Shown here: positions 1,992 to 45,434 of the stretch, in pieces
Layout of the letters: each line of letters opens with the position of its first letter
Position numbering within the stretch: position 1 is the stretch's first letter
Translations under genes and position numbers: made by a program
Notes under the pieces: model-generated
What the model was told of the DNA's origin: nothing
Database searches by the model: none
What the model saw: only the letters and a program-made list of their open reading frames with translations
NCBI GenBank assembly: GCA_001799635.1
Contig: MGTV01000029.1
Coordinates: 1,309-65,308 of the forward strand
DNA length: 64,000 nucleotides
Reading direction: 5' to 3'
From: Elusimicrobia bacterium GWA2_62_23
Lineage (GTDB): Bacteria; Elusimicrobiota; Elusimicrobia; Elusimicrobiales; UBA9959

Positions 1992-4481
1992 ATGGAAAGC
2001 ATAGTCTTCTTCGGCAAAGGCGGCATAGGCAAGAGCACGGTGGCGTCCAACGTGTCGGCCATCCTCGCCGCGCGCGGCCGCAAGGTGCTGCACGTGGGCT
2101 GCGACCCCAAAGGCGATTCCACCCTGGCGCTCACCGGCCGCCGCGTAAAGCACTTCGCCGACGGCGGCGTGTTCGCGGGCGAGCAGGCCCTGCGCGCCAG
2201 CATCCATCCCTCGCTTTTCAAGAACATCAACTGCGTGGAAGCCGGCGGCCCGCAGGCCGGCGTGGGCTGCGCCGGCGCCGGCATAGGCGCCATGCTGGAC
2301 ATCATGAAGGAATTCTCCGTGCTGGAGAAGGACGGCTACGACGCCGTGGTGTTCGACGTGCTGGGCGACGTGGTGTGCGGCGGCTTCGCGGCCCCGTTGC
2401 GCCGCGGGCTCGCTGGCAAGGCAGTTATAGTGGTGTCCGAAGAGATGCTCTCACTTTACGCCGCCAATAAACTGGTGGCCATGGTGAACAATTACGCCCG
2501 CAACGGCGTGTGGCTGGCCGGCCTGGCCGTGAACGCCAAGGACCAGGCGGCCGTGCGCCTGGCGCAGGCCTTTGCCGCGGCCGCCCGTACGCGTGTGCTG
2601 GGCATGATCCCCCGCGACCCGGCCGTGGCGCGCGCCGAGAAAATGCACCGCCCCGTGACGGTGACGGATGCCCGCAGCCCCGCCGCGGCCGCCATGGTGC
2701 GCCTGGCGGCGGCCATACAGAACGCGAAAAAGCCGGAAGTCTCCCCGCGGCCCCTCTCGGACCAGGAATTCCAGGAACTCTTTACCGGCCGGCCCGCGGA
2801 GACGGCGCTGGCTGGCGTTTCGCGCGGAGACCGGGTGCCGCCGGCCGAGCGGCTGCGCCGTGCCGGCTTTACCGTTACCGGCATAGCCGGCGGCCAGGCG
2901 CTGGCCTCGTGGCGCTCCGGCCAGCTGGTCTTCAACGTGATAATTTCTTCCGCATCGGACGCCCGGCCCGGCATGACCCGCTCCGGCGACTGGGCGGTCT
3001 GCTTCGCCCCGGACGCCGGCCCGGAGTCCTCGGCCCGCAGGGGCGCGCTGGACGCGGCGGCCGCCGGGCTCTCGGGCGTCACCTTCGACGATTTCTTCAG
3101 CGCTTTCGGCGGCGGCACCGATTTCTACCGCAATATAAACGCTTTCGAGGAACTGGCCAGCCATTCCCTGCCCGGAGGCGGCGCCCCGCGCGAGCCGCAT
3201 GTGGGCTTTGGCCAGTGGCATCGTTTCGTCTTTCCCGGAGCTCAGACCATTTCCGTTCCTCCCGGCGTGGCGCTGGTGGAGCACGGCGAGGCCGAGTGCC
3301 GTTTTTCCAGCGCGGCCCGCACGCCGCTGAGCGCCCTGCAGCGTTCCGCCGCCGGCCTGGCCGGCAGCGGGCTGGAGCCGGTGTGCCCCGGTCTGCCCAA
3401 AGAGGACGCGAACGCCGTTAATACCGGGTTCACCTATGCCGACGCCGTGCTGGGCGACGGACCTAAGGTGGAAGCCGCGCTGGGCGCCGCCGCCAGGATG
3501 ACCGGCAAGGGCGGCCTGGTGGAACTCTACAACACCTGCTCGCCCATGCTGCTGGCCACCGACCTGAAGGCCCACGCCGGCCGGGTGGCCGCGGCCGAGG
3601 GTGTGAAGATCTCCCGCTACAATCTCAATAGTTTTTACCTGGGCGTGCCGGAAAAAACAGCGGCGCGGGCCGCCTATGCCGCCTCGCGGCTGAAGGCCAT
3701 GAAGCGCCGCCGGGCCTGGGATGTGAACCTCTGCGGTTTCGGCGCTTCCCGCGGTGCGCTGGAGGCGCTGCTTAAAAGCGCCGGCCTGTCCGCCGCGCCG
3801 GAAGCCGGGGATTTTTACGCCACCGCCGCCGGTTCCGCTCTACAGGTGCTGCCGGAGCCGGACCCGGTGCTGGAGAAAGGTTTTGCCGCGGCCGGTTACG
3901 GATACGTAGTGCCGCCGGCGCCTTACGGCCTGGCCGCCAGCGGGGCCTGGTTGAAAGCGGTAACCGCCGCGCTCGGCCGCAGGAAGAGCGCCGCGCTTCC
4001 CAAAGCCGCCTTGGACCAATACGATGTCCTCTCCAAAAAGCTGGCCCGTTTCGCCGTGGCTTTTGTGGGGCAGGCCGGGGAACTGGGCTGCCTGCGCGGG
4101 GCGCACCCGCGCTGCGGCGTGCCGGCGCTGGACTTCCTGGCCGAGGCGGGCATGAAACTGCGCCTGCTGGTTTACGCGCCCGCGCCCGAAGCGCGCGCCG
4201 CCGCCGCCGCGGAGGTCAAGCGGCTTCCCGCCGGGATAAGCCGGCGCGTTTCGCTGGCTTTTTTCTCGTCCCCGGAAGAACTGAACGAACTGCTGAAGAA
4301 AGACAAGGCCCTGCGGCTAGTCTATTCGGACATCCCCATGGATCCCCGCGCGGCCGCGGCCGGTAAGACCGCCCTGTCGCCGCTGGTGTTCGAACCGGGT
4401 TACGAAGGCGCCGCCGAGACGCTGCGCCGTTTGGAAGCGCTGTGCCGCTGGAATTTCAATGAAAGATACCCGTCCCGCTAA
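1992..4481 (+). CDS. Nitrogenase-like fusion protein: NifH/BchL-type Fe-protein ATPase (aa 1-265) + unassigned insert + NifD/E/BchN-like component-1 domain
   Basis: P-loop GKGGIGKST, switch I CDPKGDST, and the 4Fe-4S ligand contexts GVGCAGAG and LGDVVCGGFA. The ORF continues without a stop into HGEAEC, PVCPG and NTCSPMLLATDL motifs plus VNLCGFG, resembling the Oxidored_nitro family. Confidence 0.8.
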   Translation: MESIVFFGKGGIGKSTVASNVSAILAARGRKVLHVGCDPKGDSTLALTGRRVKHFADGGVFAGEQALRASIHPSLFKNINCVEAGGPQAGVGCAGAGIGAMLDIMKEFSVLEKDGYDAVVFDVLGDVVCGGFAAPLRRGLAGKAVIVVSEEMLSLYAANKLVAMVNNYARNGVWLAGLAVNAKDQAAVRLAQAFAAAARTRVLGMIPRDPAVARAEKMHRPVTVTDARSPAAAAMVRLAAAIQNAKKPEVSPRPLSDQEFQELFTGRPAETALAGVSRGDRVPPAERLRRAGFTVTGIAGGQALASWRSGQLVFNVIISSASDARPGMTRSGDWAVCFAPDAGPESSARRGALDAAAAGLSGVTFDDFFSAFGGGTDFYRNINAFEELASHSLPGGGAPREPHVGFGQWHRFVFPGAQTISVPPGVALVEHGEAECRFSSAARTPLSALQRSAAGLAGSGLEPVCPGLPKEDANAVNTGFTYADAVLGDGPKVEAALGAAARMTGKGGLVELYNTCSPMLLATDLKAHAGRVAAAEGVKISRYNLNSFYLGVPEKTAARAAYAASRLKAMKRRRAWDVNLCGFGASRGALEALLKSAGLSAAPEAGDFYATAAGSALQVLPEPDPVLEKGFAAAGYGYVVPPAPYGLAASGAWLKAVTAALGRRKSAALPKAALDQYDVLSKKLARFAVAFVGQAGELGCLRGAHPRCGVPALDFLAEAGMKLRLLVYAPAPEARAAAAAEVKRLPAGISRRVSLAFFSSPEELNELLKKDKALRLVYSDIPMDPRAAAAGKTALSPLVFEPGYEGAAETLRRLEALCRWNFNERYPSR

Positions 4482-5775
4482 GGTCTTCGACAAGTCCTAC
4501 TCCATGCCCTACCTCATGGGGTATTTCCTCGCGGCCAACGCGGTGAAGGACCTGTGCGCCGTGGTGGACGGCGCCAACTGCGTGATGCAGAAAGTGGACC
4601 TGCTGGAAGGCAATCACGACCTGTTCTGTACCCTGCTCTCGCCGGACGGGCGGCACCGCGCCGTCTGCACCATGGTGAATCCTCTGAACCCGGACAAGAA
4701 CCCGGAGAAGAAGCTTTCCGCCCTGCTCAGGAGTCTGGCCGCCCACGGCGGTTACGGCGCGGTCACCGTTACCAGCCTGCCCTTCTGCCGCATGGCCGGC
4801 ATGGACTACGCCGGCATAGCCGGGGCCGTGCAGGGTAAAACCCCGGTGGCCGCCCTGCCGCCCATGCCACCGGAGGCGGACTGGCTGGATGGTTATGCCG
4901 ACACGCTCTATACGCTGGCCCGGTCCCTGCCGCTGGCCGGGAAGAAGGGGCGGCTCAAAGCGGCGGTAGTGGGCTACATGTTCGACCGCAATGAATTCGA
5001 CCACCTGGGCAATTTGAAGGAATTGAAGCGACTGCTGGGGCTGGCCGGGCTGGACCTGGTGTCGGTCTGGCCTTCCGGCGGCGGCTGCGCCGAACTTTCC
5101 CGCGCCGGCGAGGCCGGGCTGATAATTTCCCTGCCTTACGGCCGCAAGGCCGCCCGCACGCTGGCCGCGCGCACCGGGGCGAAACTGCTGGAGACCGGCC
5201 TGCCGCTGGGCCTTGGCGCCACATCGGCATGGCTAGCCGCCGCGCGCTCGGCGGCCGGCCTGAAAGGCCCCCTGCCCGCCGCCCTACACGCCGAGGAGGC
5301 CGCCGCGGCCGCCCTGCTGCGCCCCGCCCTGCGGCTGCTGCAGAACAGGAACATCGTTTTCTGCGGCGATCCCTGGCTTTACGGGGCGGTGGCCGCCTTC
5401 GCCGGCGAGCTCTGCTCGGAAGTCTCGGCCGCTTTTTTCAACTGCGCCCCCAGGCAGCTGGGGCCCGCGCCCAAGCCCGGAGCCCTGCTGTTCGCCCCGG
5501 CGCCCGACGACGCGGCCGCGGCGCTGCTGGCCCTGGGGCGCTACCGCCGCCCGGACCTGGCCGTGGCCGATTCTTTCGCCTGGCAGCAGGGGCTGACGGG
5601 GGGGGCGCCGCTGGCGGAGCTGGGGTTCCCTTCCTACGCCCGCCACTGCCTGGCCGACGAGCCTTTCCTCGGCTACGCCGGCGCCGCGCGCCTGGCCGCC
5701 CGCCTGGTGAACGCCCTGCAGGGCGGCCGCGGCTGCCCCCCCTTACAGGAAGGGCTTAAAAAAGGTAGAATATAG
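4459..5775 (+). CDS. Nitrogenase component-1-like protein (NifK/NifN/BchB-like partner)
   Basis: VVDGANC, LFCTLL, AVCTMV and SLPFCRMAGMDY motifs; KAAVVGYMF...LGNLKELKRLLGLAGLDLV resembles Oxidored_nitro family architecture. Overlaps the upstream gene by 23 nt. Confidence 0.65.
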   Translation: MKDTRPAKVFDKSYSMPYLMGYFLAANAVKDLCAVVDGANCVMQKVDLLEGNHDLFCTLLSPDGRHRAVCTMVNPLNPDKNPEKKLSALLRSLAAHGGYGAVTVTSLPFCRMAGMDYAGIAGAVQGKTPVAALPPMPPEADWLDGYADTLYTLARSLPLAGKKGRLKAAVVGYMFDRNEFDHLGNLKELKRLLGLAGLDLVSVWPSGGGCAELSRAGEAGLIISLPYGRKAARTLAARTGAKLLETGLPLGLGATSAWLAAARSAAGLKGPLPAALHAEEAAAAALLRPALRLLQNRNIVFCGDPWLYGAVAAFAGELCSEVSAAFFNCAPRQLGPAPKPGALLFAPAPDDAAAALLALGRYRRPDLAVADSFAWQQGLTGGAPLAELGFPSYARHCLADEPFLGYAGAARLAARLVNALQGGRGCPPLQEGLKKGRI

Positions 5776-14339: not shown

Positions 14340-16568
<2,229 letters not shown>

Positions 16569-16623
16569 AAAGTTGGATGAATGCGACCACGGCGCGGCTT
16601 CCTTTCAAGACCCCCGCAAATAA

Positions 16624-16629
16624 TATAAT
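16624..16629 (+). promoter_or_regulatory. -10 box TATAAT 8 nt upstream of the ATG at 16638 (possible leaderless start)
   Basis: TATAAT at 16624-16629, then ATTGCGCT, then ATG. No SD. Confidence 0.35.
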
Positions 16630-16637
16630 ATTGCGCT

Positions 16638-18812
16638 ATGGGTGAACTATGGCGTTTCAGGGACGAGTGGCTGCTGCGCGGCCTGGCCGCGGCGCCCGGG
16701 GTGACGCCGCAGCTCATAGAGCAGTTCCGCGCCGAAAAACGCAAATTCGTGGCCCACGCCCTCGTAGAGGCCGGGGTGATCACGGCCGGGCAGCTGGTGA
16801 CGACCGGCGAGACCCTTTCCAAAACAAAATATTTCCAGCTGGCCCCGGAACACGTGGATAAGTTCGCGCTTTCGCTGGTGCCCGAAAAGATCTGCCGCAA
16901 GTACGACCTGCTGCCGCTGAACCTGGGGGAAAGCGAGATAAAGGTGGCGATGCTGAACCCCACCGACATGACCGCGCAGGCGGACGTGGAGGCCCTGACC
17001 GGCCGGCGCGTGCTGCCGGTGTTCAGCGCGCCGCGGGAGATAGAGACCTGCCTGGAGCAGCTCTTCAGCGCCGACACGGTCATCTTCGACCTGCTTAACA
17101 AGGTGGAGGCGCCCGACGATATCATGGTGCTGGGCGCCGCCAAGAACTCCGAAAGCCAGGATTCCGCCATCACCTCCCCGGTGATCATGCTGGTGAATTC
17201 CATAATCTCCCAGGCTTACCGCCGGCGTTCCTCCGACATCCACATAGAGCACGAGGAACAGAACAGCCACGTGCGCATCCGCATAGACGGCGAGCTGAAG
17301 AACATCATGAAGCTGCCGCGCCACATAGCTACGGGGCCCGTGGTCTCGCGCATCAAGATCATGTCGGACCTGGACGTATCCAACCATTTCAAGCCCCAGG
17401 ACGGACGCACCAAGATCCGCATCGGCACTGCGGAAGTGGGTTTGCGCGTTTCCACGCTGCCCACCTCTTACGGCGAGAAAGTGGTGATGCGCATCCTGGA
17501 CCAGCGTGCGGCCGAGGTGCCGTTCGAAAAACTGGGTTTCGCCCCCGAAGTGGCCGCCGCCATAGACAAGTGCGCCGCCGCCCCGCAGGGGATCATCCTG
17601 GTGACCGGACCCACCGGCTCCGGCAAGACCACCACGCTTTATTCCGTGCTCAACAAGGTGAAGCAGGAGACCACCAACGTGGTCACCGTGGAAGACCCGA
17701 TAGAGTACAAACTTCCCGGCATCAACCAGGTGCAGGTGAACGAGAAACAGGGTCTCGGCTTCGCGGCCGTGCTGCGCTCGGTGCTGCGCCAGGACCCGGA
17801 CATCATCATGGTCGGCGAGATCCGCGATCATGAGACCGCGGACATCGCCTTCCAGGCGGCCATGACCGGCCACCTGGTGCTGTCCACCCTGCACACCAAC
17901 GATACGGTCTCGACCCTGGCGCGGCTGGTGGACATGGGCGTGGACCGTTTCAAGATCTCGCCCGGCCTGCTGGCCATAACCGCCCAGCGCCTGGTGCGCA
18001 GGCTGTGCCCACTTTGCAAAGCGCCCGTGCCGGAAGCGGAGGCCTCACCGGAGGTCCTCCGGGCCCTCGGAGACCGCGGCCTCGGCAAGGTTTATTACCG
18101 CCCCGCGGGGTGCAAGGCCTGCGAGGGCACCGGTTACGCCGGGCGCACCTCCATAGTGGAGCTGCTGCTGATAGACCCGAAGATCAAGGAACTGATAAAC
18201 GCCGGCGCCCTGGCGGAAGAGATCGTCAGGTCCGGTTCGGCTTCCGGTTCGCTGCGTACCATGTCGCATGACGCGCTCTGGCACCTGGCGACGGGGCAGT
18301 GCGACCTCAGGGAGATAGAGCCGTACCTCGCCCTGGGGAAGCAGGCCGCCGCGCCGCAAAAAGCGCCGCCGGAGACGGTCCATGAGGTTCCCGGCGCCCC
18401 GCCGGCCGCGGCCGCGCGGCCGGAAGGGAAGCCCCGCGTGATGATAGTGGACGACGACAAGATCATGCGGATGCTGCTGAAAAAATTCGTGGAGAACGCC
18501 GGGTACGAGGCCCTGGAGGCCGAGGACGGGGAAGCCGCCCTTACCAAAATAGCGGAGGGCCCCGCCCCTGACCTGCTGGTGTCGGATATCAATATGCCCA
18601 AGATGAACGGCCTTGAGCTGGTGAAGGGCCTGCGCAACACCCTGGGCCTGCTGGACCTGCCCGTGATAATGCTGACCACGGAAAGTTCCGACAAGAGCCA
18701 GGAGCTGGCTTTTCAGCTGGGCGCCGACGATTACGTGATAAAACCCTTCAAGGGCCCGCTGGTGATGGCGCGGATAACGGCCGCCCTGCGGCGGTCCGGG
18801 CGCCTGGGCTGA
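16638..18812 (+). CDS. GspE/PilB-family secretion ATPase fused to a C-terminal response-regulator receiver domain
   Basis: T2SSE N-terminal domain, Walker [17 protein letters not shown], Walker [13 protein letters not shown], His box [12 protein letters not shown], tetra-Cys CPLCK...CKACEGTG. A Pro/Ala linker then leads to the receiver [11 protein letters not shown]...[13 protein letters not shown]...DDYVIKPF. Confidence 0.9.
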
Positions 18813-18831: not shown

Positions 18832-18870
18832 AAAAATACGCGCCGCTTTAAGCGGCGCGTATCTTTTTTG
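18832..18870. terminator. Bidirectional intrinsic terminator between convergent genes
   Basis: AAAAAATAC-GCGCCGC-TTTAA-GCGGCGC-GTATCTTTTTT. Confidence 0.75.
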
Positions 18871-18887: not shown

Positions 18888-19265
18888 TCAGCCGCCGGTA
18901 AGGCGCTTGACGGCCTCCAGGACCTCCTCGGGTCTCGCTACCTTGTTGAGGACTATCACGGAGGGGCCTTCGTGGATCTTCTTGGCGACTTCGTCGGGGG
19001 CCATGGATGAGTAGATGAGGAAGGGGACCTGGAAAGAGCCGGACATCATCTGCAGGCGCTCGTAAACGGCGAAGCCGCCGCCGGCCGGCATCATGATGTC
19101 GAGTACTATGAGGTCCGGTTTGATCTGCTTGGCCAGCATGAGCCCCTGTATCGCGTCCAGGGCGGCGAAAACCTGGTAGCCGGCCTTCTCGAACATCAGC
19201 TTCAGCAGGGCGTGGACCGTGCGGTCGTCGTCCACCACAAGGATCTTCTTTCTGGTCGCGTCCAT
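18888..19265 (-). CDS. Single-domain response regulator (CheY-like receiver)
   Basis: KILVVDDDRTVHALL...DLIVLDIMMPAGGG. Confidence 0.85.
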   Translation of the reverse strand: MDATRKKILVVDDDRTVHALLKLMFEKAGYQVFAALDAIQGLMLAKQIKPDLIVLDIMMPAGGGFAVYERLQMMSGSFQVPFLIYSSMAPDEVAKKIHEGPSVIVLNKVARPEEVLEAVKRLTGG

Positions 19266-19336: not shown

Positions 19337-19342
19337 TATAAT
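19337..19342 (+). promoter_or_regulatory. -10 box TATAAT 8 nt upstream of the ATG at 19351 (possible leaderless start)
   Basis: TATAAT at 19337-19342, then TACCATAG, then ATG. No SD. Confidence 0.35.
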
Positions 19343-19350
19343 TACCATAG

Positions 19351-19617
19351 ATGCACAGCCGCATAAAACGCCTTGAAGAACTGGTGGCCGGCGCCTCGGA
19401 ACTGATAGCCCGCCTGAAGGAGGAGAACGTGGTTCTCCGCAAACAGGTGGAGCTGCTGACCGCCGCCCGCAACAAGGCCGCTTCCAATACCGCCGCAGCG
19501 CGCGAACTGGCGGATTTTAAGGCCAAAGTCCGCCGCCGCCTGGAGCGGATCTGCGCCAAAATAGAGAAGGCGAACGACCTGCAACCCGGTCTGTTCGAGG
19601 AAGAAGATGAGCAATAA
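19351..19617 (+). CDS. Coiled-coil protein, ZapB-like/DUF904-like (cell-division associated)
   Basis: 88-aa heptad-rich sequence immediately upstream of, and overlapping, zapA. Confidence 0.35.
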   Translation: MHSRIKRLEELVAGASELIARLKEENVVLRKQVELLTAARNKAASNTAAARELADFKAKVRRRLERICAKIEKANDLQPGLFEEEDEQ

Positions 19618-19906
19618 CGATTTTGAGGCCAAGGTGCGCGGCCGGACCATAAAGTTCCCCGCCGTGGACGGCCTGACCGAGCTGGAGCTGGGCGGCATCG
19701 TCGCGCAGGTCGAGGAGAAGATAAGCCAGATAGAGGAAAAGCTCAACGTGGTGGATACCTCCAAGCTGGCCATCCTGGCCGCCTACGCCTTCGCCGTGGA
19801 ACTCAACAATCTCAGGCAGAAGTCCGAGACCAACCGCGAGGCGGACTCCAGAAAAGTGGAGGAAATGGTCTCCATGCTGGAAAAAACGCTGGAGGACGGC
19901 AAGTAA
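19607..19906 (+). CDS. zapA: Cell division protein ZapA
   Basis: Architecture V-x-G-R-x-I-x-F, then a helical region AILAAYAFAVELNNL, comparable to ZapA. Confidence 0.7.
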   Translation: MSNNDFEAKVRGRTIKFPAVDGLTELELGGIVAQVEEKISQIEEKLNVVDTSKLAILAAYAFAVELNNLRQKSETNREADSRKVEEMVSMLEKTLEDGK

Positions 19907-39981: not shown

Positions 39982-42900
39982 CTAGAACTGGAAGGTCAGC
40001 GTGCTGCCGGCCTGGTACGAGAGGTACTCTTCCTGCTTGAGATACTTGTGCCACAGGCGCTGCAGCCCGGCGTTGAAGGTCAGGCGCAGGTTCTTGGCGG
40101 CCTCGTAGTCGGCGCTGGAGTTCAGGGTGAAGAGCTTGGTGTTCTCCGCTATGGTTATGGGCGACGACTTGATGGCGTAGCTCAGCGTGGTGGTCCAGAC
40201 TATGCGGTTCGTGAAAATTATCGTCTGCTTCATGAATGGCAGCTTGAGGCCCTTTGGCAGCTGGAAGTCCGTCTTTATCAGCAGGCTGGGGGTGATGGTG
40301 CGGGTGTTCTGCGTCACCACGCCGAGCGCGGCCTTGGCCTTGTCGGAGACGTAGTCCGCCTTGGGGGTGAAGCGGAACTTGCCGTAATCAAAAGTGCCCT
40401 GCAGGGTGGCGTCGTCGTGGCGGGTGCTGCCGGTCAGGCGGTTCACGCGCAGGTCCCTCTTGTCGGTCAGGCGCAGGTTGTAGCTGGCGGCGGTGTCCAT
40501 CCAGTTGAGCAGTTTGAAGCGGAGGTCCATGCCGTACGTGTCCGAGGAGTCCAGGGAGATCTTCTTGGCCTCGTTGGTGTTGCGGGAGTACTTCAGGTTG
40601 ATGGTGGCGCCCTGGGCCCAGCGTCGGGCCCCGGTGAGCAGTTCCAACTGCGATAGCGACAGGATCATGTCCGGGAAGGTGCGGTTGACGCTCTTGGAGA
40701 TGGTGCCCGTCACTTCGGAGCGCTGAACCGAGTTGCTGTAATTGTTGGTCACCGACAGCGTCTTGAGCGCCGAGGCCCGGCCCGCGAAGGCGTAGCCCTC
40801 GAAGGGCTGCCAGCGCTGGGTGGAGCTCACGGTGTCGCGCATGGTTATGGAATTGCGCTGGGCCAGGCGGTTGGCCGGCTTCAGGGGGTCGCGGATCCAG
40901 AGCTTGTTGCGCGTGTTGTAGTCCTTCTCCACGTTCTGCCAGATGTCGCCGTCCTGGATCTGGTAGTTGGAGGACAGCACCAGCGAGCGCAGCAGGCGGT
41001 TGGAGGGCATCAGGTCGTTCATGCTGATGGTCAGGGCCACGCCGCCCTGCGCGGTGCGGTTCACGTTCTTGATCTGGCCGGCGGTGTAGACCTGCGAGCT
41101 CTGCGCCACGGTGACGGTGGTGGTGTTGAGGTTGTTGCTCTCCATGGTGGTCACGGAGTAGTTCACCGACGGGTTGAGCCAGCGGGCCAGCATGAAGTTG
41201 GAGTTGAAGTCCACCGTCTGCTGCATGGACTTGGGGTAGCGTTCCCGCGCGGTGGGGGCGGCCAGCGGCGAGCGCTCCTCCCGGGCGGTCTGCAGGGTAT
41301 AGCCCGGGTTGAAGGAGGACCCGTTCCAGGGGATGAAGGTGAGCCTGGCGCCGTACACGTCGGTGCGCTCGCTGGTGTCGTAGAGCCCGGAGAGGTTGAG
41401 CAGGCGGCTCTCGTCGTAGCGGACCCGGCTTAGTCCCAGGGAATAGTTGAGGTTCAGCGAGCGCGGCAGCACCGGCACCGCGCCCGGCACGGAGTAGGAC
41501 AGGTTGGCGGCGTAGAGGTCCCGGTCGTCCTTGCGGCTCAGCAGGTTGTAGTCGGTGATGCCCTTGGTGTAGTTCAGACCCAGCTTGGGCAGCGCCCCGA
41601 CGCTGAGCGTGCCGGCGGCCGTGCCGTCGAATTTCTTCACGCGGCCCTGCTGCAGCGAATTCACCAGGTTGTTGCCGCCGGTCACCAGGGCGTTGGGCGT
41701 TACGGTGATCTGGCGCGCCGCGGTGACGTTCACCGGGAAGAAGGCCAGGCGCGTGATGTTGAGGTAGCCCGTATTATGTTCGTTGTCCTGGTTAGCGATG
41801 GCGGTGACCGGCGTCTGGAAATTGCGGTCTACTAAACGGTGCTTGCCGCCGAAACTGAACCACCCGGGGATCTCGAAAGCGCCTTCCACCTTGCGGGCGT
41901 TGCCCACCCGGGTGAGCGGGTCCGCCACGTGCAGTTCGTTGAAATAGACGGCGCCGCTGTGGGGCTGGTCGTCCTTGGCGGCTATCCCGATGATGAACTG
42001 CGGCACCTGCTGCAGGCTGGGCGTGCCGGTGGAGGTCACTACCACGCCCGAAGTGCCGGAGGCCCAGCGGTCGGGTATCCCGTCTTCGGTTATGTCGGTC
42101 TGGTCGATGACCACCATCTTCCAGCCGGTGAAGTTAAGAGGGACCTCGGCCTTGAAGTAGCTGGCCTCGTCGCCGGCCTTCAGGTAGAAGCTGGCGTTGG
42201 CGTCCGCGGCGCCCTGGTTGTTCAGCAGGAAGCGCAGCTTGCCGTGCTGCGACACGTCTATGGCGCGGGTGAACTTGCGGTAGACGTAGGCGGTGGCCGT
42301 GGAAGAGACGTTGTCGTAGGTGACGGAGAGCGTCTGCTCCACCACGGTCGCGCCGTTGCTCTTTTCTTTCTGCTCCGAAACGGAACCGTAAAGGTCGTTA
42401 TAGACTATGGTAGCCTCGCCGCCGGCGTCGTAGATGGGGGTGTAGCCGGGGTTGTCCAGGTTGTTCACGGCGGTGGCCTGCATGGTGCCGGCCTGCGTGG
42501 CCGTGCCGGCGTTGACGGACCAGGTATTGCCCACGGCGGAGATGCGGGCGAACTTTAGGACGCCGGAGGCGGCGCCGCCGGGGGTCTGCTTCAGGGAGAT
42601 GCGCACCTGTTTCACGGCGTTCCATTTATAGGTGTCCGTGGAAGCTATGGCCAGCGGCATCACCAGGGTGTGCCAGCCGGCGAAGTCCACAGTATTCTTC
42701 AGGTTGCCGGAGTCGTTGTTGTCCGTGAATTTGGAGTTCTTCACGTAACCAAAGCTGTTCCCTGTTGAGTCACCGAAGTCCAGGCGTCCGTTCTTGTTGA
42801 GGTCTTCGGAGTCCAGGCGTCCGTTGTTCGCCCCGTAGCGGCGCGAGTTGACGGCGTTGGAGGGTGAGTAGAGCCAACCTATGTCCTCGGAACTTCCCAC

Positions 42901-45345
42901 CTGCGCGTCGCAGTTGAGGTCTTCGCTTTTGGGGGCGTTGTGAAGCACTAGTCCCGATGTGCAGACAAAGGTGTCGCCGCTGCGGCCGTCCGCGTCCTCG
43001 CTGATCTGTCCCAGGTGGATGTTTATCTGCGGACCCTCGTTCCCGGCGGCGGTGCTGTTCTGTCCGTAGACCACCAGTTCCAGCACGTTCTTCTGCGAGA
43101 AGTCCAGGCCGGTGGGGGACAGCGGGTAAACTATGGAGACTTCGGACGAGACGTTGAAGTCGTAGTTAACGCTCAATACCTGCTGGGAACCGTCCGAACT
43201 GGAGGCAGGGTTGATGTCGCGGGACTTCACGTTCTCGGTGTTCCAGTCCAGGGCCGTAGGGTCCGCGGGGGCGAGCGTGGGGTTGGCCGCTATGAACCAG
43301 TAGTTCCGGTCCATGGCCGCGGAATCCTCCTGTTTGGCGCCTTCCATGTTGTCTATCAGGGCCACGTCGTTGAGGTTGGGGTTCAACCGGCTCTGCGCTA
43401 CTTCTCCACCGATAGATGCCCGCAGGCCCAGCAGGTTCAGGCCTTTGAGCTGGGAGTCGCCTTCGTAGACCAGCATGCTGTTGGTGAGGTCCGTGATGTT
43501 CGGCACTGAATTGGACTTGATTCCTCCCTGGTAGAGCATGGTGGAACCCAGGGAGAAATGATCGCCGAAGTCGTAGGAGATGCGGCCTCCCACCATGGAC
43601 TGGTTGCCCACCCCGCCGAAGGGCGAAACTTCGTAGGAGATGTCTATCTTGGAATCCTGGCTGACGCGTTCCGGGTAGTAGAACGTGATGAAGCCGGAGT
43701 CGTAGTCTATGAAATATTCCTCGTTGCGGCCGAGCTTGCGGCCGTCCACGCGCACCACTTCCGACTGGAGCACTATGTTGGGCTCCAGCATGAAGGTCTT
43801 GAAGCGGTAGGAATATTCCACGCGGAAGACGCGTTTGGACACCGGGGCGGCCGAATATACCTGCTGGTCCGGGGTGGCGGGGGCCCCTTCCTCGCCGAAA
43901 GGCTCTTTCAGGTTGAAGATGCCCTGTTCGAAATCCACTTCGATATCGTCGGGATAGACCTGGCGTGGGCTCAGGGACGAACCGACGCTGTTGCGGTTGA
44001 GGTCCTGCACCTTAAGGGTGAAATTACCGGTGCCGTTGTCGCGCACGATATTGGTCTGGCCTATGGAATAGTAGGTCTTGAGCTCCCGGTTCCAGCAGGT
44101 CTCGGCGGCGGCCGTCAGCGTGTCGGAGGAGATCAGCGGGATGTCGCTGGGGCTCTTTATGATCTTGGGCAGCCCGCTGCCGCCGGTATTGAGCAACAGG
44201 GGGGCGGTGTTCTGGGCCAGCATGGAGCCGTCGGAGTTCTGGAAGTCTATTATGACCACGTCCTGCGGGTTCAGGGTGCGGCTGAACGTCACCATGCCCT
44301 TAATGTAGTCCATCACGTAGTCTATGCCGGGGCTCAGCAGCTGGAAGCGGCCCCGGTAGGTGACCGTGGACAGCGCCAGATCGTCGGCGGTGATGTCGAA
44401 GACCGTGACATTGTCCACCTGCGCCAGCGTCTGCTGGTCTATGTAGATGCGTTCGGTCCCGGACTTGATAGGCAGGCGGTTGCAGACCGTGGTATCGCAG
44501 CCGAAGGTGAGGTCGTAGTACTTGCGGCGCAGGTAGCTGACGTCCAGGATGTCCGTGCCCTGGAACTGGGTGTTGCCGGTGAACTGCTTGGTCTTGGTCT
44601 GGCCCTTGGTGCGCGAGCCCACGAAGGTGAACTTGAGGCGGTTGGTCTTGAGGTCGGCGCGGATACCGAACAGCTGCTTATTGTAGGAAACGAATTCGGT
44701 GGCCGGCAGCGAGAGGTCGATGTCGCCGAACGAAACGTTCTGCACCACTTCGTTGGGGTCGCCGGTATAGACCACCGAGATGTCCTGCTTGTCCACCTTG
44801 GTGTCGTCGTAGTCCACGTTGACGGTGATCTTCTGGCCCACCTTGCCCTGCATGCGCACCTGCATCTGCTGGGTGATCTCGAAGAGGCTGAGGCTGCGGG
44901 GGCGCGTGTTGGTGGTCTGTTCGTAAAGGTACTTCTTGCCGCTGTAGTTGAGGGCTATCACCTTGCGGCCCGTCACGGAGAGCGTGGTGCCGGATTCCTT
45001 GAACTCAACCTGCGGTTCCACCATGGTAGGCAGGTCGGTGGAGATCTCTATGGCCCTGGCGGGGGCCAGTTCGTCCTGGCGGAAGCGGCCGGTCTCCACC
45101 GCCTCGCGCACCGAGTTCCAGGCGTCCTCGCTGTAGGAGAAAGGCAGGTCGCCGGACATTTCGTCAAGGGTGGAGCCCGCGGGCTCGGCCTGTTCCTGGT
45201 CCACGGTCACGCGTGAAGGGTCGGGCCTGTCGAGCAGGAGGAAGCGGCCGCCCTCCGGCTTCGGCACGGCGAAGTCGGCGGCCGCCGCGCCGGGGGCGCA
45301 GGCCAGTACCGCTGTGAGGAAAAGTAGTTTCGCCGTCTCTTTCAC
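39982..45345 (-). CDS. Giant outer-membrane beta-barrel protein, SprA-like
   Basis: Signal peptide MKETAKLLFLTAVLACAPGAAAA if the GTG at 45345 is used (alternatives 45366, 45426). The block VVYTGDPNEVVQNVSFGDIDLSLP...QLFGIRADLKTNRLKFTFVGSRTKGQ resembles the conserved SprA N-terminal signature (from memory). Ends in ...STLTFQF. Confidence 0.55.
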   Translation of the reverse strand: MKETAKLLFLTAVLACAPGAAAADFAVPKPEGGRFLLLDRPDPSRVTVDQEQAEPAGSTLDEMSGDLPFSYSEDAWNSVREAVETGRFRQDELAPARAIEISTDLPTMVEPQVEFKESGTTLSVTGRKVIALNYSGKKYLYEQTTNTRPRSLSLFEITQQMQVRMQGKVGQKITVNVDYDDTKVDKQDISVVYTGDPNEVVQNVSFGDIDLSLPATEFVSYNKQLFGIRADLKTNRLKFTFVGSRTKGQTKTKQFTGNTQFQGTDILDVSYLRRKYYDLTFGCDTTVCNRLPIKSGTERIYIDQQTLAQVDNVTVFDITADDLALSTVTYRGRFQLLSPGIDYVMDYIKGMVTFSRTLNPQDVVIIDFQNSDGSMLAQNTAPLLLNTGGSGLPKIIKSPSDIPLISSDTLTAAAETCWNRELKTYYSIGQTNIVRDNGTGNFTLKVQDLNRNSVGSSLSPRQVYPDDIEVDFEQGIFNLKEPFGEEGAPATPDQQVYSAAPVSKRVFRVEYSYRFKTFMLEPNIVLQSEVVRVDGRKLGRNEEYFIDYDSGFITFYYPERVSQDSKIDISYEVSPFGGVGNQSMVGGRISYDFGDHFSLGSTMLYQGGIKSNSVPNITDLTNSMLVYEGDSQLKGLNLLGLRASIGGEVAQSRLNPNLNDVALIDNMEGAKQEDSAAMDRNYWFIAANPTLAPADPTALDWNTENVKSRDINPASSSDGSQQVLSVNYDFNVSSEVSIVYPLSPTGLDFSQKNVLELVVYGQNSTAAGNEGPQINIHLGQISEDADGRSGDTFVCTSGLVLHNAPKSEDLNCDAQVGSSEDIGWLYSPSNAVNSRRYGANNGRLDSEDLNKNGRLDFGDSTGNSFGYVKNSKFTDNNDSGNLKNTVDFAGWHTLVMPLAIASTDTYKWNAVKQVRISLKQTPGGAASGVLKFARISAVGNTWSVNAGTATQAGTMQATAVNNLDNPGYTPIYDAGGEATIVYNDLYGSVSEQKEKSNGATVVEQTLSVTYDNVSSTATAYVYRKFTRAIDVSQHGKLRFLLNNQGAADANASFYLKAGDEASYFKAEVPLNFTGWKMVVIDQTDITEDGIPDRWASGTSGVVVTSTGTPSLQQVPQFIIGIAAKDDQPHSGAVYFNELHVADPLTRVGNARKVEGAFEIPGWFSFGGKHRLVDRNFQTPVTAIANQDNEHNTGYLNITRLAFFPVNVTAARQITVTPNALVTGGNNLVNSLQQGRVKKFDGTAAGTLSVGALPKLGLNYTKGITDYNLLSRKDDRDLYAANLSYSVPGAVPVLPRSLNLNYSLGLSRVRYDESRLLNLSGLYDTSERTDVYGARLTFIPWNGSSFNPGYTLQTAREERSPLAAPTARERYPKSMQQTVDFNSNFMLARWLNPSVNYSVTTMESNNLNTTTVTVAQSSQVYTAGQIKNVNRTAQGGVALTISMNDLMPSNRLLRSLVLSSNYQIQDGDIWQNVEKDYNTRNKLWIRDPLKPANRLAQRNSITMRDTVSSTQRWQPFEGYAFAGRASALKTLSVTNNYSNSVQRSEVTGTISKSVNRTFPDMILSLSQLELLTGARRWAQGATINLKYSRNTNEAKKISLDSSDTYGMDLRFKLLNWMDTAASYNLRLTDKRDLRVNRLTGSTRHDDATLQGTFDYGKFRFTPKADYVSDKAKAALGVVTQNTRTITPSLLIKTDFQLPKGLKLPFMKQTIIFTNRIVWTTTLSYAIKSSPITIAENTKLFTLNSSADYEAAKNLRLTFNAGLQRLWHKYLKQEEYLSYQAGSTLTFQF

Positions 45346-45434
45346 TTTAAATAAATCAAGAACCACAGGCCTGCCGGTTTTCCCCGGGCAAGCGAGACCG
45401 CGGCCGCCGCGAAGTTTCCACGGCACCGTCGATA

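What the first reader, a model, noticed from the sequence alone, without database searches (positions are those of the whole stretch)
16638..18812. Type II/IV secretion ATPase (GspE/PilB) fused to a receiver domain, embedded in a phosphorelay locus without any pilus or secretion machinery genes
Seen in sequence:
- A complete GspE/PilB ATPase is present: T2SSE_N domain, Walker A/B, Asp and His boxes, and a tetra-Cys motif.
- A Pro/Ala-rich linker ([28 protein letters not shown]) joins it to a full CheY-like receiver carrying the phospho-acceptor context LLVSDINMP.
- Divergently transcribed is a hybrid histidine kinase with its own receiver and an Hpt domain (14340-16568).
- Convergent is a stand-alone receiver (18888-19265).
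- No PilC/GspF platform, pilin, secretin or PilM-Q genes occur within 10 kb on either side.

Inference: a multistep phosphorelay (HK to REC to Hpt) probably ends on the ATPase-borne receiver, with the single-domain receiver acting as a competitor or sink. That would give direct phosphorylation control of a pilus or secretion motor. I know c-di-GMP control through the N-terminal domain of MshE-type ATPases, but I do not recall a characterised C-terminal receiver fusion.
Basis: partly seen in the sequence, partly recalled or inferred. Interest (0 to 1): 0.55.

Follow-up and report, generated by a model that had tools for sequence, protein, structure and literature searches.

The report
Pilus motor ATPase with built-in phospho-switch
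An Elusimicrobia bacterium encodes a type IV pilus assembly motor (PilB-type ATPase) with a two-component receiver domain fused to its tail, next to a sensor kinase relay; the fusion is real and widespread in uncultured bacteria, has not been studied, and suggests pilus building can be switched directly by phosphorylation.

Summary
ORF 16638-18812 (+) encodes a 724-aa protein with MshEN/N1, a complete T2SSE ATPase, a disordered 30-aa Pro/Ala tether and a receiver with the full D605/D606/D650/T680/K702 set. A CHASE3 hybrid kinase-REC-Hpt gene lies divergent and a lone receiver convergent. No pilC, prepilin or secretin occurs anywhere in the 64 kb.

It is not an artefact or a rarity. 119 of the 120 closest protein clusters carry the receiver, as do 120 of the best 150 50%-identity representatives. 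Full-length relatives occur in Elusimicrobiota, Calditrichota, Gemmatimonadota and one Deltaproteobacteria MAG.

In Calditrichota the gene heads a complete pilus/secretion operon. A receiver-less Elusimicrobia relative (68% identity) sits in a pilB-pilC-pilS-pilR arrangement. The family is therefore a genuine PilB-type motor.

The published c-di-GMP motif is absent from all 139 family members tested. About 10 of 13 Elusimicrobia loci have kinase genes nearby, one with a stand-alone Hpt gene ending 6 nt upstream.

The best reading is a response regulator whose output is the pilus motor. Phosphotransfer and its effect are inferred, not shown. I found no paper describing the C-terminal fusion; an N-terminal REC variant is only catalogued. 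Verdict: new variant of a known kind, moderate interest.

The parts
16638..18812 (+). Gene for the 724-aa PilB-type ATPase with a C-terminal receiver (PilB-REC). It appears monocistronic.
   Evidence: ORF and translation. Pfam MshEN + T2SSE + Response_reg. The start [11 protein letters not shown] is conserved in relatives.
16638..16823 (+). Residues 1-62: four-helix N-terminal bundle (MshEN_N-like) that lacks the c-di-GMP-binding motif.
   Evidence: AlphaFold helices at 10-16, 24-32, 38-44 and 50-61, pLDDT 78-90. The relaxed 24-residue motif of Wang 2016 is absent here and in 0 of 139 family members, against 25 of 61 receiver-less PilB ORFs used as control.
16830..17075 (+). Residues 65-146: MshEN / T2SSE_N1 domain. 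In homologues this is the interface to PilM/GspL.
   Evidence: Pfam PF05157, E 1.4e-14.
17172..18317 (+). Residues 179-560: N2 and C-terminal ATPase domains with Walker A (324), Asp box (351), Walker B (386), His box (410) and the CxxC...CxxC zinc motif (457, 492).
   Evidence: Pfam PF00437, E 1.6e-128. Motif positions. Best solved relatives are Geobacter PilB 5zfr/5tsg at E ~1e-116.
18339..18428 (+). Residues 568-597: Pro/Ala-rich disordered tether between ATPase and receiver.
   Evidence: pLDDT below 50 for residues 568-595. Family linkers have a median of 39 aa, with 19% Ala and 15% Pro.
18438..18776 (+). Residues 601-713: CheY-like receiver with D605, D606, D650 (phospho-acceptor), T680 and K702, and the motif [10 protein letters not shown] in beta5.
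   Evidence: Pfam PF00072, E 7e-28. Alignment to CheY. Predicted (beta-alpha)5 fold, pLDDT 85-92.
18836..18862 (.). GC-rich hairpin (12-bp stem) flanked by an A-run and a T-run, between the convergent PilB-REC and receiver genes. Likely a bidirectional intrinsic terminator.
   Evidence: Terminator scan and sequence. The function is inferred.
18888..19265 (-). Stand-alone 125-aa receiver (DivK/DVU0259-like) with D12/D13, D56, S86 and K108 (own numbering). Candidate second terminal acceptor or phosphate sink.
   Evidence: Pfam PF00072, E 1.7e-16. NCBIfam NF045717, 72 bits, below its cutoff. An ortholog is seen only in L002, at 75% identity.
14340..16568 (-). Hybrid sensor kinase: TM-CHASE3-TM, PAS remnant, HisKA (H259), HATPase_c, REC (D555), Hpt (H681). 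Candidate phosphodonor.
   Evidence: Pfam. Motif positions. Orthologous CHASE3 kinases lie near the PilB gene in L002/L003, L005 and L088.
16569..16637 (.). 69-bp divergent intergenic region between the kinase and PilB-REC genes. Presumed shared promoter region.
   Evidence: Sequence. No consensus sigma-70 site was found there. The promoter role is inferred only.

Best explanation
The gene encodes a PilB-type (type IVa pilus / type II secretion superfamily) hexameric assembly ATPase of an Elusimicrobiales bacterium. It doubles as a response regulator.

The proposed pathway:
- A catalytically competent receiver hangs from the ATPase C-terminus on a disordered Pro/Ala tether of about 30 aa.
- The usual N-terminal c-di-GMP site of MshE/PilB-type ATPases is degenerate, so the receiver is the regulatory input.
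- The adjacent CHASE3 hybrid kinase senses an extracytoplasmic cue and relays phosphate H259 -> D555 -> H681 (Hpt).
- Hpt then passes phosphate to D650 of the ATPase-borne receiver, and probably also to the neighbouring lone receiver, which would compete for or drain phosphate.
- Phosphorylation then changes motor output after translation. The most likely route is receiver dimerisation or undocking that alters hexamer assembly or ATP turnover. The sign of the effect is unknown.
- The pilus platform, pilins and secretin are encoded elsewhere in the genome.

Shown here: domain composition, intact catalytic and receiver residues, a disordered tether, family-wide conservation, pilus-operon context in relatives, recurrent kinase and Hpt neighbours, and absence of the c-di-GMP motif.

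Inferred: the identity of the phosphodonor, the sink role of the lone receiver, the effect on ATPase activity, and pilus rather than secretion as the filament served.
For: Domains and motifs:
- Domain hits and motif positions.
- The receiver's acid pocket, T and K are intact in the window and in 130 of 138 family receivers, and in 106 of 122 receiver-bearing 50%-identity representatives.
- 119 of the 120 nearest clusters carry PF00072.
- 120 of the best 150 representatives have T2SSE followed by REC.

Motor identity:
- The best solved matches are PilB from Geobacter and Myxococcus and PilF from Thermus.
- Calditrichota members lead an operon of PilB-REC, prepilin peptidase, T2SSF, three N_methyl pilins, a PilX_N-like protein, PilO/GspM and a secretin, in 6 of 7 loci.
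- P0097 is receiver-less and 68% identical. It groups with the Elusimicrobia receiver-bearing sequences and is followed by pilC, pilS and pilR.

Relay:
- The kinase has its H, D and Hpt-H residues.
- CHASE3 kinase orthologs recur near this PilB.
- In L090, hybrid kinases and a 99-aa Hpt gene precede PilB-REC on the same strand, and the Hpt gene ends 6 nt upstream.
- In L008, a PAS-HK-REC-Hpt-CheW kinase and CheR follow it.
- Kinase genes also flank it in L007, L087, the P0113 locus, L005 and L089.

Other points:
- The c-di-GMP motif is absent in 0 of 139 members, against 25 of 61 controls.
- The tether is disordered and the receiver well folded in the AlphaFold model.
- Precedent for receivers acting on PilB in trans: PixG~P binds PilB1 and PixH counteracts it (PMC11181946); DrdR stimulates PilB/PilT ATPase (PMC13507683).
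Against: - No phosphotransfer or activity data exist.
- The kinase partner is not conserved across the family. Types vary, and L004, L086 and L092 have no kinase within 7-10 kb.
- L088 keeps the CHASE3 kinase although its PilB has no receiver, so that kinase must have other targets.
- The lone receiver is conserved only in the closest relative.
- The protein scores below the NCBIfam equivalog cutoffs for both PilB (527 against 676 bits) and GspE (518 against 630 bits). Pilus versus secretion is therefore not settled.
- No pilus gene lies in this 64-kb window, so the machine it serves is unseen.
- Gemmatimonadota members keep a receiver that cannot be phosphorylated, which shows the domain can work without phosphorylation.
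Confidence: 0.6

Rival explanations
1. The receiver is real, but its phosphodonor is not the neighbouring CHASE3 kinase. The adjacency in this genome is incidental, the cognate kinase or Hpt lies elsewhere, and the lone receiver is the true terminal acceptor of the adjacent relay.
For: - Neighbouring kinases differ between lineages: CHASE3 hybrid, CheB-CheR-HisKA_3, REC-HK, HATPase_c-only, PAS-HK-Hpt-CheW.
- Three loci have none.
- L088 retains the CHASE3 kinase beside a receiver-less PilB.
Against: - CHASE3 kinase orthologs recur within 0-5 kb of this PilB in four lineages.
- An Hpt-ending hybrid kinase needs a terminal receiver, and two lie directly beside it.
- L090 shows an Hpt gene ending 6 nt upstream of PilB-REC on the same strand.
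Confidence: 0.2
2. The receiver works mainly as a phosphorylation-independent structural module for docking, dimerisation or localisation, for example to the platform or a polar landmark. It would not be a switch on ATPase activity.
For: - Eight Gemmatimonadota orthologs keep the domain with D57->G/A/R, T87->A and K109->E, and add a GAF domain.
- 16 of 122 representatives lack D57 or K109.
- The FimX receiver, which lacks its Asp, is reported to be needed for localisation (review PMC11656802).
Against: - In Elusimicrobia, Calditrichota and the delta MAG, the full D/D/D/T(S)/K set is kept in every member examined. That argues for selection on phosphorylation chemistry.
- Kinase and Hpt neighbours are frequent.
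Confidence: 0.12
3. The protein powers a type II secretion-like or other non-pilus filament system, or is an orphan signalling ATPase, rather than a type IVa pilus extension motor.
For: - It scores below the equivalog cutoffs for both PilB and GspE, with near-equal scores.
- The Calditrichota operon order (E, peptidase, F, pseudopilin-like genes, M-like gene, secretin) resembles a T2SS as much as a T4P.
- There are no pilus genes in the window.
Against: - The top structural relatives are PilB/PilF.
- Coverage of the PilB model is nearly full length, 21-559 of 564.
- The nearest receiver-less relative has the pilB-pilC-pilS-pilR arrangement typical of T4aP.
Confidence: 0.15
4. The fusion is an assembly or gene-calling artefact: a chimeric contig, or a lost stop codon between a pilB and a receiver gene.
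For: None found.
Against: - The same single ORF occurs in independent assemblies at 99%, 92% and 50-79% identity.
- It occurs in GTDB genomes of four phyla.
- It occurs in 120 of 150 cluster representatives.
- The linker is in frame and of conserved length.
Confidence: 0.01

Closest known systems
Type IVa pilus extension ATPase PilB (Geobacter metallireducens/sulfurreducens PilB, PDB 5TSG/5TSH/5ZFR; Myxococcus xanthus PilB, 3JC8; Thermus PilF)
   Same: It has the N1 (MshEN), N2 and C-terminal ATPase domains with Walker A/B, Asp box, His box and a tetracysteine zinc site. Matches reach E ~1e-116 over residues 25-560. A close relative sits in a pilB-pilC-pilSR arrangement.
   Different: It carries an extra C-terminal tether and receiver (residues 568-724). 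It scores below the TIGR02538 equivalog cutoff. It is not next to pilC/pilD in this genome.
MshE/PilB-type c-di-GMP-sensing ATPases (V. cholerae MshE; MshEN domain, Wang et al. 2016, PMC5013675)
   Same: The overall MshEN-T2SSE layout is the same, and a four-helix N-terminal bundle is predicted.
   Different: The 24-residue c-di-GMP motif, even in its relaxed form, is absent here and in all 139 family members tested. The regulatory input appears to have moved to a C-terminal receiver.
REC-MshEN-T2SSE architecture (Geobacter metallireducens Gmet_3473), GAF-MshEN-T2SSE and MshEN-T2SSE-cNMPbind, catalogued in Wang et al. 2016, Supplementary Table 4
   Same: A signalling domain is fused to a PilB/GspE-type ATPase, and none of these has been characterised.
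   Different: Here the receiver is C-terminal rather than N-terminal. MshEN-T2SSE-REC is not in that table. The phyla differ: Elusimicrobiota, Calditrichota and Gemmatimonadota against Proteobacteria.
Stand-alone receivers that act on PilB in trans: Synechocystis PixG/PixH (PMC11181946), P. aeruginosa PilG/PilH (reviewed in PMC11656802), Xanthomonas DrdR (PMC13507683)
   Same: A phosphorylated CheY-like domain controls the pilus motor. A second receiver acts as antagonist or sink. The neighbouring kinases are chemosensory-type or hybrid.
   Different: In those systems the receiver is a separate protein that binds PilB. Here it is covalently tethered to each protomer, so there are six receivers per hexamer. 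That fixes the stoichiometry and removes the diffusion and localisation step.
Receiver-controlled oligomeric ATPases of the NtrC/DctD/NtrC1 class (my own knowledge, not tested here)
   Same: Receiver phosphorylation governs the assembly or activity of a ring ATPase. The receiver here has the GADDY-x-KPF beta5 motif and conserved alpha5 arginines, as in receivers that dimerise through alpha4-beta5-alpha5.
   Different: The ATPase fold differs: PilT-like ASCE secretion ATPase against AAA+. The receiver is C-terminal and the tether is long and disordered.

Membership tests
GspE/PilB/PilT secretion ATPase superfamily (Pfam T2SSE, PF00437) | Walker A, Asp box, Walker B and His box in order, within a T2SSE domain | tested here: met
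   PF00437 at 428.9 bits against a cutoff of 24.9. Motifs at residues 324, 351, 386 and 410.
GspE/PilB extension-ATPase subgroup | Tetracysteine (CxxC...CxxC) zinc motif in the C-terminal domain, and an N1/MshEN domain | tested here: met
   C457PLC and C492KAC. All four Cys are invariant in 50 family members. PF05157 at 54.3 bits.
Type IV-A pilus assembly ATPase PilB (NCBIfam TIGR02538 equivalog) | Score at or above the curated equivalog cutoff | tested here: not met
   526.8 bits against a cutoff of 675.65. The alignment is nearly full length, 21-559 of 564.
Type IV-A pilus assembly ATPase PilB | Encoded with pilC/pilD or other pilus machinery genes | tested here: inconclusive
   Not in this window. 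Yes for the receiver-less relative L088, with pilC-pilS-pilR, and for the Calditrichota family members. The rest of this genome is not available.
Type II secretion ATPase GspE (NCBIfam TIGR02533 equivalog) | Score at or above the curated equivalog cutoff | tested here: not met
   518.4 bits against a cutoff of 630.25.
MshEN c-di-GMP receptor (Wang et al. 2016) | Two 24-residue motifs [RKPN]hGxxhhxx[GAS]hhxxxxhxxxhxx[QNKRYWST] spaced by 5 residues | tested here: not met
   No single or tandem match in the window protein or in any of the 139 family members. Controls: 25 of 61 have a single motif and 9 of 61 the tandem.
Two-component receiver domain (Pfam Response_reg, PF00072), phospho-competent | Acidic pair, phospho-acceptor Asp, Thr/Ser and Lys (CheY D12, D13, D57, T87, K109) in a (beta-alpha)5 fold | tested here: met
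   D605, D606, D650, T680 and K702. 97.4 bits against a cutoff of 30.2. Predicted five beta-alpha units, pLDDT 85-92.
Two-component receiver domain | Actual phosphorylation at the conserved Asp | not testable with these tools
   Needs phosphotransfer, Phos-tag or mass spectrometry.
Multistep (His-Asp-His-Asp) phosphorelay | Hybrid kinase with an H-box His, a receiver Asp and an Hpt His | tested here: met
   HisKA, HATPase_c, Response_reg and Hpt are all above their cutoffs. H259, D555 and H681.
Multistep (His-Asp-His-Asp) phosphorelay | The terminal receiver is the cognate partner of that Hpt | tested here: inconclusive
   Supported by adjacency here and in L002/L003, by the Hpt gene directly upstream in L090, and by the Hpt-bearing kinase downstream in L008. 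However, partner types vary and some loci lack kinases.
REC-MshEN-T2SSE architecture (Gmet_3473 type) | Receiver N-terminal to MshEN | tested here: not met
   The receiver is C-terminal, at residues 601-713. Only 2 of 150 representatives have the REC-T2SSE order.

The most novel reading that the evidence does not exclude
PilB-REC proteins may be a widespread, multi-phylum class of response regulators whose output domain is the pilus/secretion motor itself. In Elusimicrobia they would be the terminal, cis-wired output of Hpt-type and chemosensory-like relays (PAS-HK-REC-Hpt-CheW plus CheR in L008; CheB-CheR kinase in L087). That would be a fused 'CheY-plus-motor' that replaces c-di-GMP sensing and gates filament extension within seconds. 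Gemmatimonadota would have later rewired the same scaffold to small-molecule sensing, with a pseudo-receiver plus a GAF domain.
Probability: 0.3. Interest if true: 0.65.

Novelty: new variant of a known kind. Interest (0 to 1): 0.45.

Why it matters
How pilus extension motors are switched on and off is an open question, reviewed in PMC11656802. Known inputs act in trans: c-di-GMP through MshEN or FimX-PilZ, and CheY-like proteins such as PilG, PixG and DrdR.

A natural covalent fusion of a phospho-competent receiver to PilB is independent, 'Rosetta-stone' evidence that receivers act directly on the motor. It also gives a simple one-polypeptide system for working out the mechanism by biochemistry and cryo-EM, using D650 variants and BeF3-. 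The pseudo-receiver-plus-GAF derivatives offer a built-in evolutionary comparison.

The family is large, so annotation pipelines that label it simply 'type II/IV secretion system protein' miss a whole class of response regulators. The practical impact is limited because all carriers are uncultured lineages.

Tried and rejected
1. Assembly or gene-calling artefact. Rejected: the same ORF occurs in many independent assemblies and phyla.

2. Single evolutionary origin of the fusion. A first neighbour-joining tree of the ATPase core grouped the Elusimicrobia, Gemmatimonadota and Calditrichota members with no receiver-less sequence inside. After adding more distant receiver-bearing representatives, the group was no longer a clean clade, with 0 of 100 bootstraps. 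I make no claim about one versus several gains and losses.

3. c-di-GMP control through MshEN. Rejected for this family on motif grounds. The test is motif-based only; binding was not measured.

4. Pilus genes hidden in small ORFs of the window. A prepilin-motif scan in six frames and a PilC tblastn were both negative, with working controls.

5. Literature. Searches combined PilB, GspE, T2SSE, receiver, CheY-like, Elusimicrobia and MshEN. I also read Wang 2016 Supplementary Table 4, the 2024 PilB review, which has 0 uses of 'receiver', Denise 2019 and Meheust 2020, which does not mention pili. No description of a C-terminal receiver on PilB was found. The library lacks most subscription journals, so absence is not proof.

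6. Cluster-member lookup for taxonomy of distant representatives gave almost no organism names.

7. Conserved neighbours in Gemmatimonadota (Crp-like regulator, luciferase-like oxidoreductase, AI-2E transporter, MarR) gave no functional lead.

8. The AlphaFold monomer confirms the domains and the disordered tether. It cannot show how the receiver contacts the hexamer, with pTM 0.49. No fold search was run because the sequence matches were already unambiguous.
Full report
WHAT IS THERE

ORF 16638-18812 (+) encodes a 724-aa protein. Pfam gives MshEN (residues 65-146), T2SSE (179-560, E 1.6e-128) and Response_reg (601-713, E 7e-28). Every ATPase signature is present: Walker A at 324, Asp box at 351, Walker B at 386, His box at 410, and CxxC at 457 and 492. 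The receiver aligns to CheY with D605/D606/D650/T680/K702.

An AlphaFold model built on 50 family members has mean pLDDT 83.5. It shows a four-helix N-terminal bundle, the N1/N2/C-terminal ATPase domains and a canonical (beta-alpha)5 receiver. Residues 568-595 have pLDDT below 50, so the Pro/Ala stretch is a disordered tether.

Neighbours:
- The divergent gene 14340-16568 (-) is a TM-CHASE3-TM-HisKA-HATPase_c-REC-Hpt hybrid kinase with H259, D555 and H681.
- The convergent gene 18888-19265 (-) is a 125-aa receiver.
- A 12-bp GC-rich hairpin flanked by A- and T-runs lies between the two convergent genes.
- The flanks are housekeeping genes: infC, rplT, pheS, pheT and pirin upstream; zapA, rarA, xseA and tlyA downstream.
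- The 64-kb window holds no PilC homologue, no prepilin motif in any frame, and no secretin or PilM/N/O domain in the ORFs scanned against Pfam.

ORGANISM, AND WHETHER THE FUSION IS REAL

The nearest proteins are from metagenomes at 99% and 92% identity, and from Elusimicrobiales/Elusimicrobiota MAGs at 50-79% identity. 119 of the 120 best 90%-identity clusters carry the receiver.

A profile-free scan of 1.84 billion 50%-identity representatives returned 150 top hits. Of these, 120 have T2SSE followed by a receiver (106 plain, 14 with further C-terminal domains). Only 2 have the receiver in front. 106 of 122 receiver-bearing representatives retain the phospho-acceptor Asp and the Lys.

A scan of GTDB species genomes found full-length matches in Elusimicrobiota, Calditrichota (7 loci), Gemmatimonadota (8 loci) and one Deltaproteobacteria MAG. 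PilB genes from other phyla stop aligning at about residue 560.

The fusion is therefore genuine, old and common in uncultured lineages. IMG already labels some members 'PilB-like protein/CheY-like'.

WHAT KIND OF ATPASE

The best solved relatives are PilB of Geobacter (5zfr, 5tsg), PilB of Myxococcus and PilF of Thermus, followed by GspE. NCBIfam places it between PilB (527 bits) and GspE (518 bits), below both equivalog cutoffs. By score alone it is an unassigned member of the extension-ATPase group.

Context in relatives settles that it is a real filament motor:
- In 6 of 7 Calditrichota loci the gene heads an operon of prepilin peptidase, T2SSF platform, three N_methyl pilins, a PilX_N-like protein, a PilO/GspM-like protein and a secretin.
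- In Elusimicrobia, the receiver-less protein P0097 (68% identical) is closest to the 70-77%-identity receiver-bearing group. It falls inside the smallest split that contains the Elusimicrobia members.
- P0097 is followed directly by pilC, then a pilS-like kinase and a pilR-like sigma-54 regulator.

So the family is orthologous to, or very close to, the housekeeping T4aP PilB. In that lineage the receiver was most likely lost secondarily.

REGULATORY LOGIC

The relaxed c-di-GMP motif published for MshEN occurs in none of the 139 family members. It occurs in 25 of 61 receiver-less PilB ORFs from the same set of fetched loci. The N-terminal second-messenger input therefore looks degenerate.

Kinase genes recur next to the gene in Elusimicrobia:
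- The CHASE3 hybrid kinase is adjacent in the window and in L002/L003, and 3-5 kb away in L005 and L088.
- In L090, hybrid PAS kinases and a stand-alone 99-aa Hpt gene precede PilB-REC on the same strand. The Hpt gene ends 6 nt upstream.
- In L008, a PAS-HisKA-HATPase-REC-Hpt-CheW kinase and CheR follow it, and a receiver protein lies divergent upstream.
- In L007, REC-HK, FIST and PAS-HK genes follow it.
- In L087, a CheB-CheR-PAS kinase and a NarL-type regulator precede it.
- The P0113 locus has a binding-protein/HK/PAS/REC/REC-HK operon upstream.
- L005 and L089 have an HATPase_c protein directly downstream.

About 10 of 13 distinct Elusimicrobia contexts have kinase-type genes within 7 kb. 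L004, L086 and L092 do not. None of the 13 has pilus genes adjacent.

This pattern fits a response regulator whose partner kinases have been swapped during evolution, which is ordinary for two-component systems. An Hpt-terminated relay feeding the fused receiver is the most economical reading of the window. The lone receiver is conserved only in the 92% relative. Its sink or competitor role rests on analogy with PixH and PilH (PMC11181946; PMC11656802).

MECHANISM (INFERRED)

Each protomer of the presumed hexamer carries a receiver on a disordered tether. Tether length has a family median of 39 aa, and composition is 19% Ala and 15% Pro.

The receiver's best structural matches are OmpR/PhoB-family receivers (PhoP, CpxR). 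It has the invariant GADDY-x-KPF beta5 motif and conserved alpha5 arginines. From general knowledge of that family, these features go with phosphorylation-driven alpha4-beta5-alpha5 dimerisation.

I therefore favour phosphorylation-dependent pairing of the tethered receivers, or their release from the ATPase, which would change hexamer assembly or ATP turnover. The direction of the effect cannot be predicted.

The eight Gemmatimonadota proteins show that the scaffold can be rewired. Their receiver has lost D12, D13, D57, T87 and K109, and a GAF domain has been added behind it.

COMPARISON WITH THE KNOWN

Receivers controlling PilB in trans are established:
- PixG~P binds PilB1 (PMC11181946).
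- DrdR stimulates PilB/PilT ATPase (PMC13507683).
- PilG/PilH act in the Pil-Chp system (PMC11656802).

Fusions of signalling domains to PilB-type ATPases are catalogued but unstudied. REC-MshEN-T2SSE, GAF-MshEN-T2SSE and MshEN-T2SSE-cNMPbind appear in Wang et al. 2016, Supplementary Table 4. MshEN-T2SSE-REC is not listed there. The 2024 review of PilB regulation never uses the word 'receiver'. My literature searches found no paper on a C-terminal receiver.

I file it as a new variant of a known kind: a known motor, a known type of regulator, and a known regulatory relationship, joined in one polypeptide in an undescribed order, with loss of the usual c-di-GMP site.

VERDICT

The feature is real, conserved and widespread. 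The phosphorelay reading is plausible and strengthened by comparative context, but it is not demonstrated.

- Interest: 0.45.
- Confidence that this is a PilB-type motor with a functional receiver: about 0.9.
- Confidence that the adjacent relay phosphorylates it and thereby controls the motor: about 0.5-0.6.

Noticed in passing
window 1992-4481 (+) and 4459-5775 (+): An 829-aa protein fuses a NifH-like domain (Fer4_NifH) to a nitrogenase component-1-like domain (Oxidored_nitro). A second Oxidored_nitro protein follows it. This may belong to the 'group VI' nitrogenase paralogs reported in groundwater Elusimicrobia (Meheust et al., bioRxiv 10.1101/765248). The NifH-NifD-like fusion and the group assignment were not checked phylogenetically.
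   Followed up: partly
window 14340-16568 (-) compared with L002 6596-9613 (-): The window's CHASE3 kinase is about 250 aa shorter than its counterpart in the 92% relative. The PAS region (L002 residues ~305-508) is missing. The N-terminal sensor part is only 55% identical, against 86% for the kinase-REC-Hpt part. The sensor module seems to evolve fast or to have been partly deleted.
   Followed up: partly
L009-L015 and L056 (Gemmatimonadota), e.g. L056 9962-12676: The orthologs are about 903 aa. Their receiver has lost all five active-site residues (V / S,G,A,T / G,A,R / A / E), and a GAF_2 domain is appended. A Crp-like regulator gene is conserved divergently upstream in 8 of 8 loci. This looks like a switch from phospho-control to ligand control.
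   Followed up: partly
L016 9965-21143 (Calditrichaceae MAG); likewise L017, L018, L020-L022: A compact operon runs PilB-REC, prepilin peptidase, T2SSF, three pilin-like genes, a PilX_N-like gene, a 600-650-aa protein with no Pfam match, a PilO/GspM-like gene, a 157-aa protein and an STN-secretin. It is a complete filament system headed by the receiver-bearing ATPase. T4P versus T2SS is not resolved.
   Followed up: partly
L008 9001-15896 (Elusimicrobia MAG): PilB-REC is followed by a single 988-aa PAS-HisKA-HATPase_c-REC-Hpt-CheW protein and by CheR. A 306-aa receiver protein lies divergent upstream. A HisKA-type kinase carrying a CheW domain is an unusual chemosensory hybrid.
   Followed up: no
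L007 4269-9351 (-) (Elusimicrobiota MAG): Flagellar genes (fliG, fliF, fliE, a rod protein and a REC-sigma54 activator) lie divergent from PilB-REC in one Elusimicrobiota MAG. REC-HK, FIST and PAS-HK genes lie downstream.
   Followed up: no
L024 3599-6121 (Deltaproteobacteria MAG): This family member has a double zinc-ribbon domain (DZR) inserted between the ATPase and the receiver.
   Followed up: no
window 39982-45426 (-): A 1814-aa ORF has no Pfam match. It has a signal-peptide-like N-terminus and ends in ...TLTFQF, a C-terminal signature typical of outer-membrane beta-barrels. It lies beside lptF/lptG, and the region has strong positive GC skew and negative AT skew. It may be a giant outer-membrane protein.
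   Followed up: no
window 19342-19773 (-) against 19351-19617 (+) and 19607-19906 (+): The 143-aa minus-strand ORF next to the lone receiver is probably spurious. The syntenic relative has an 88-aa gene and zapA on the + strand there.
   Followed up: partly
L001, L004, L005 and L089, immediately upstream of PilB-REC (e.g. L005 8870-9949, -): A protein of about 360 aa with no Pfam match is conserved at 70% identity and divergently transcribed from PilB-REC in the 71-77%-identity Elusimicrobiales group (in L089 by position and size only). It is absent from the window. An HATPase_c-only protein of about 375 aa lies directly downstream in L005 and L089.
   Followed up: partly
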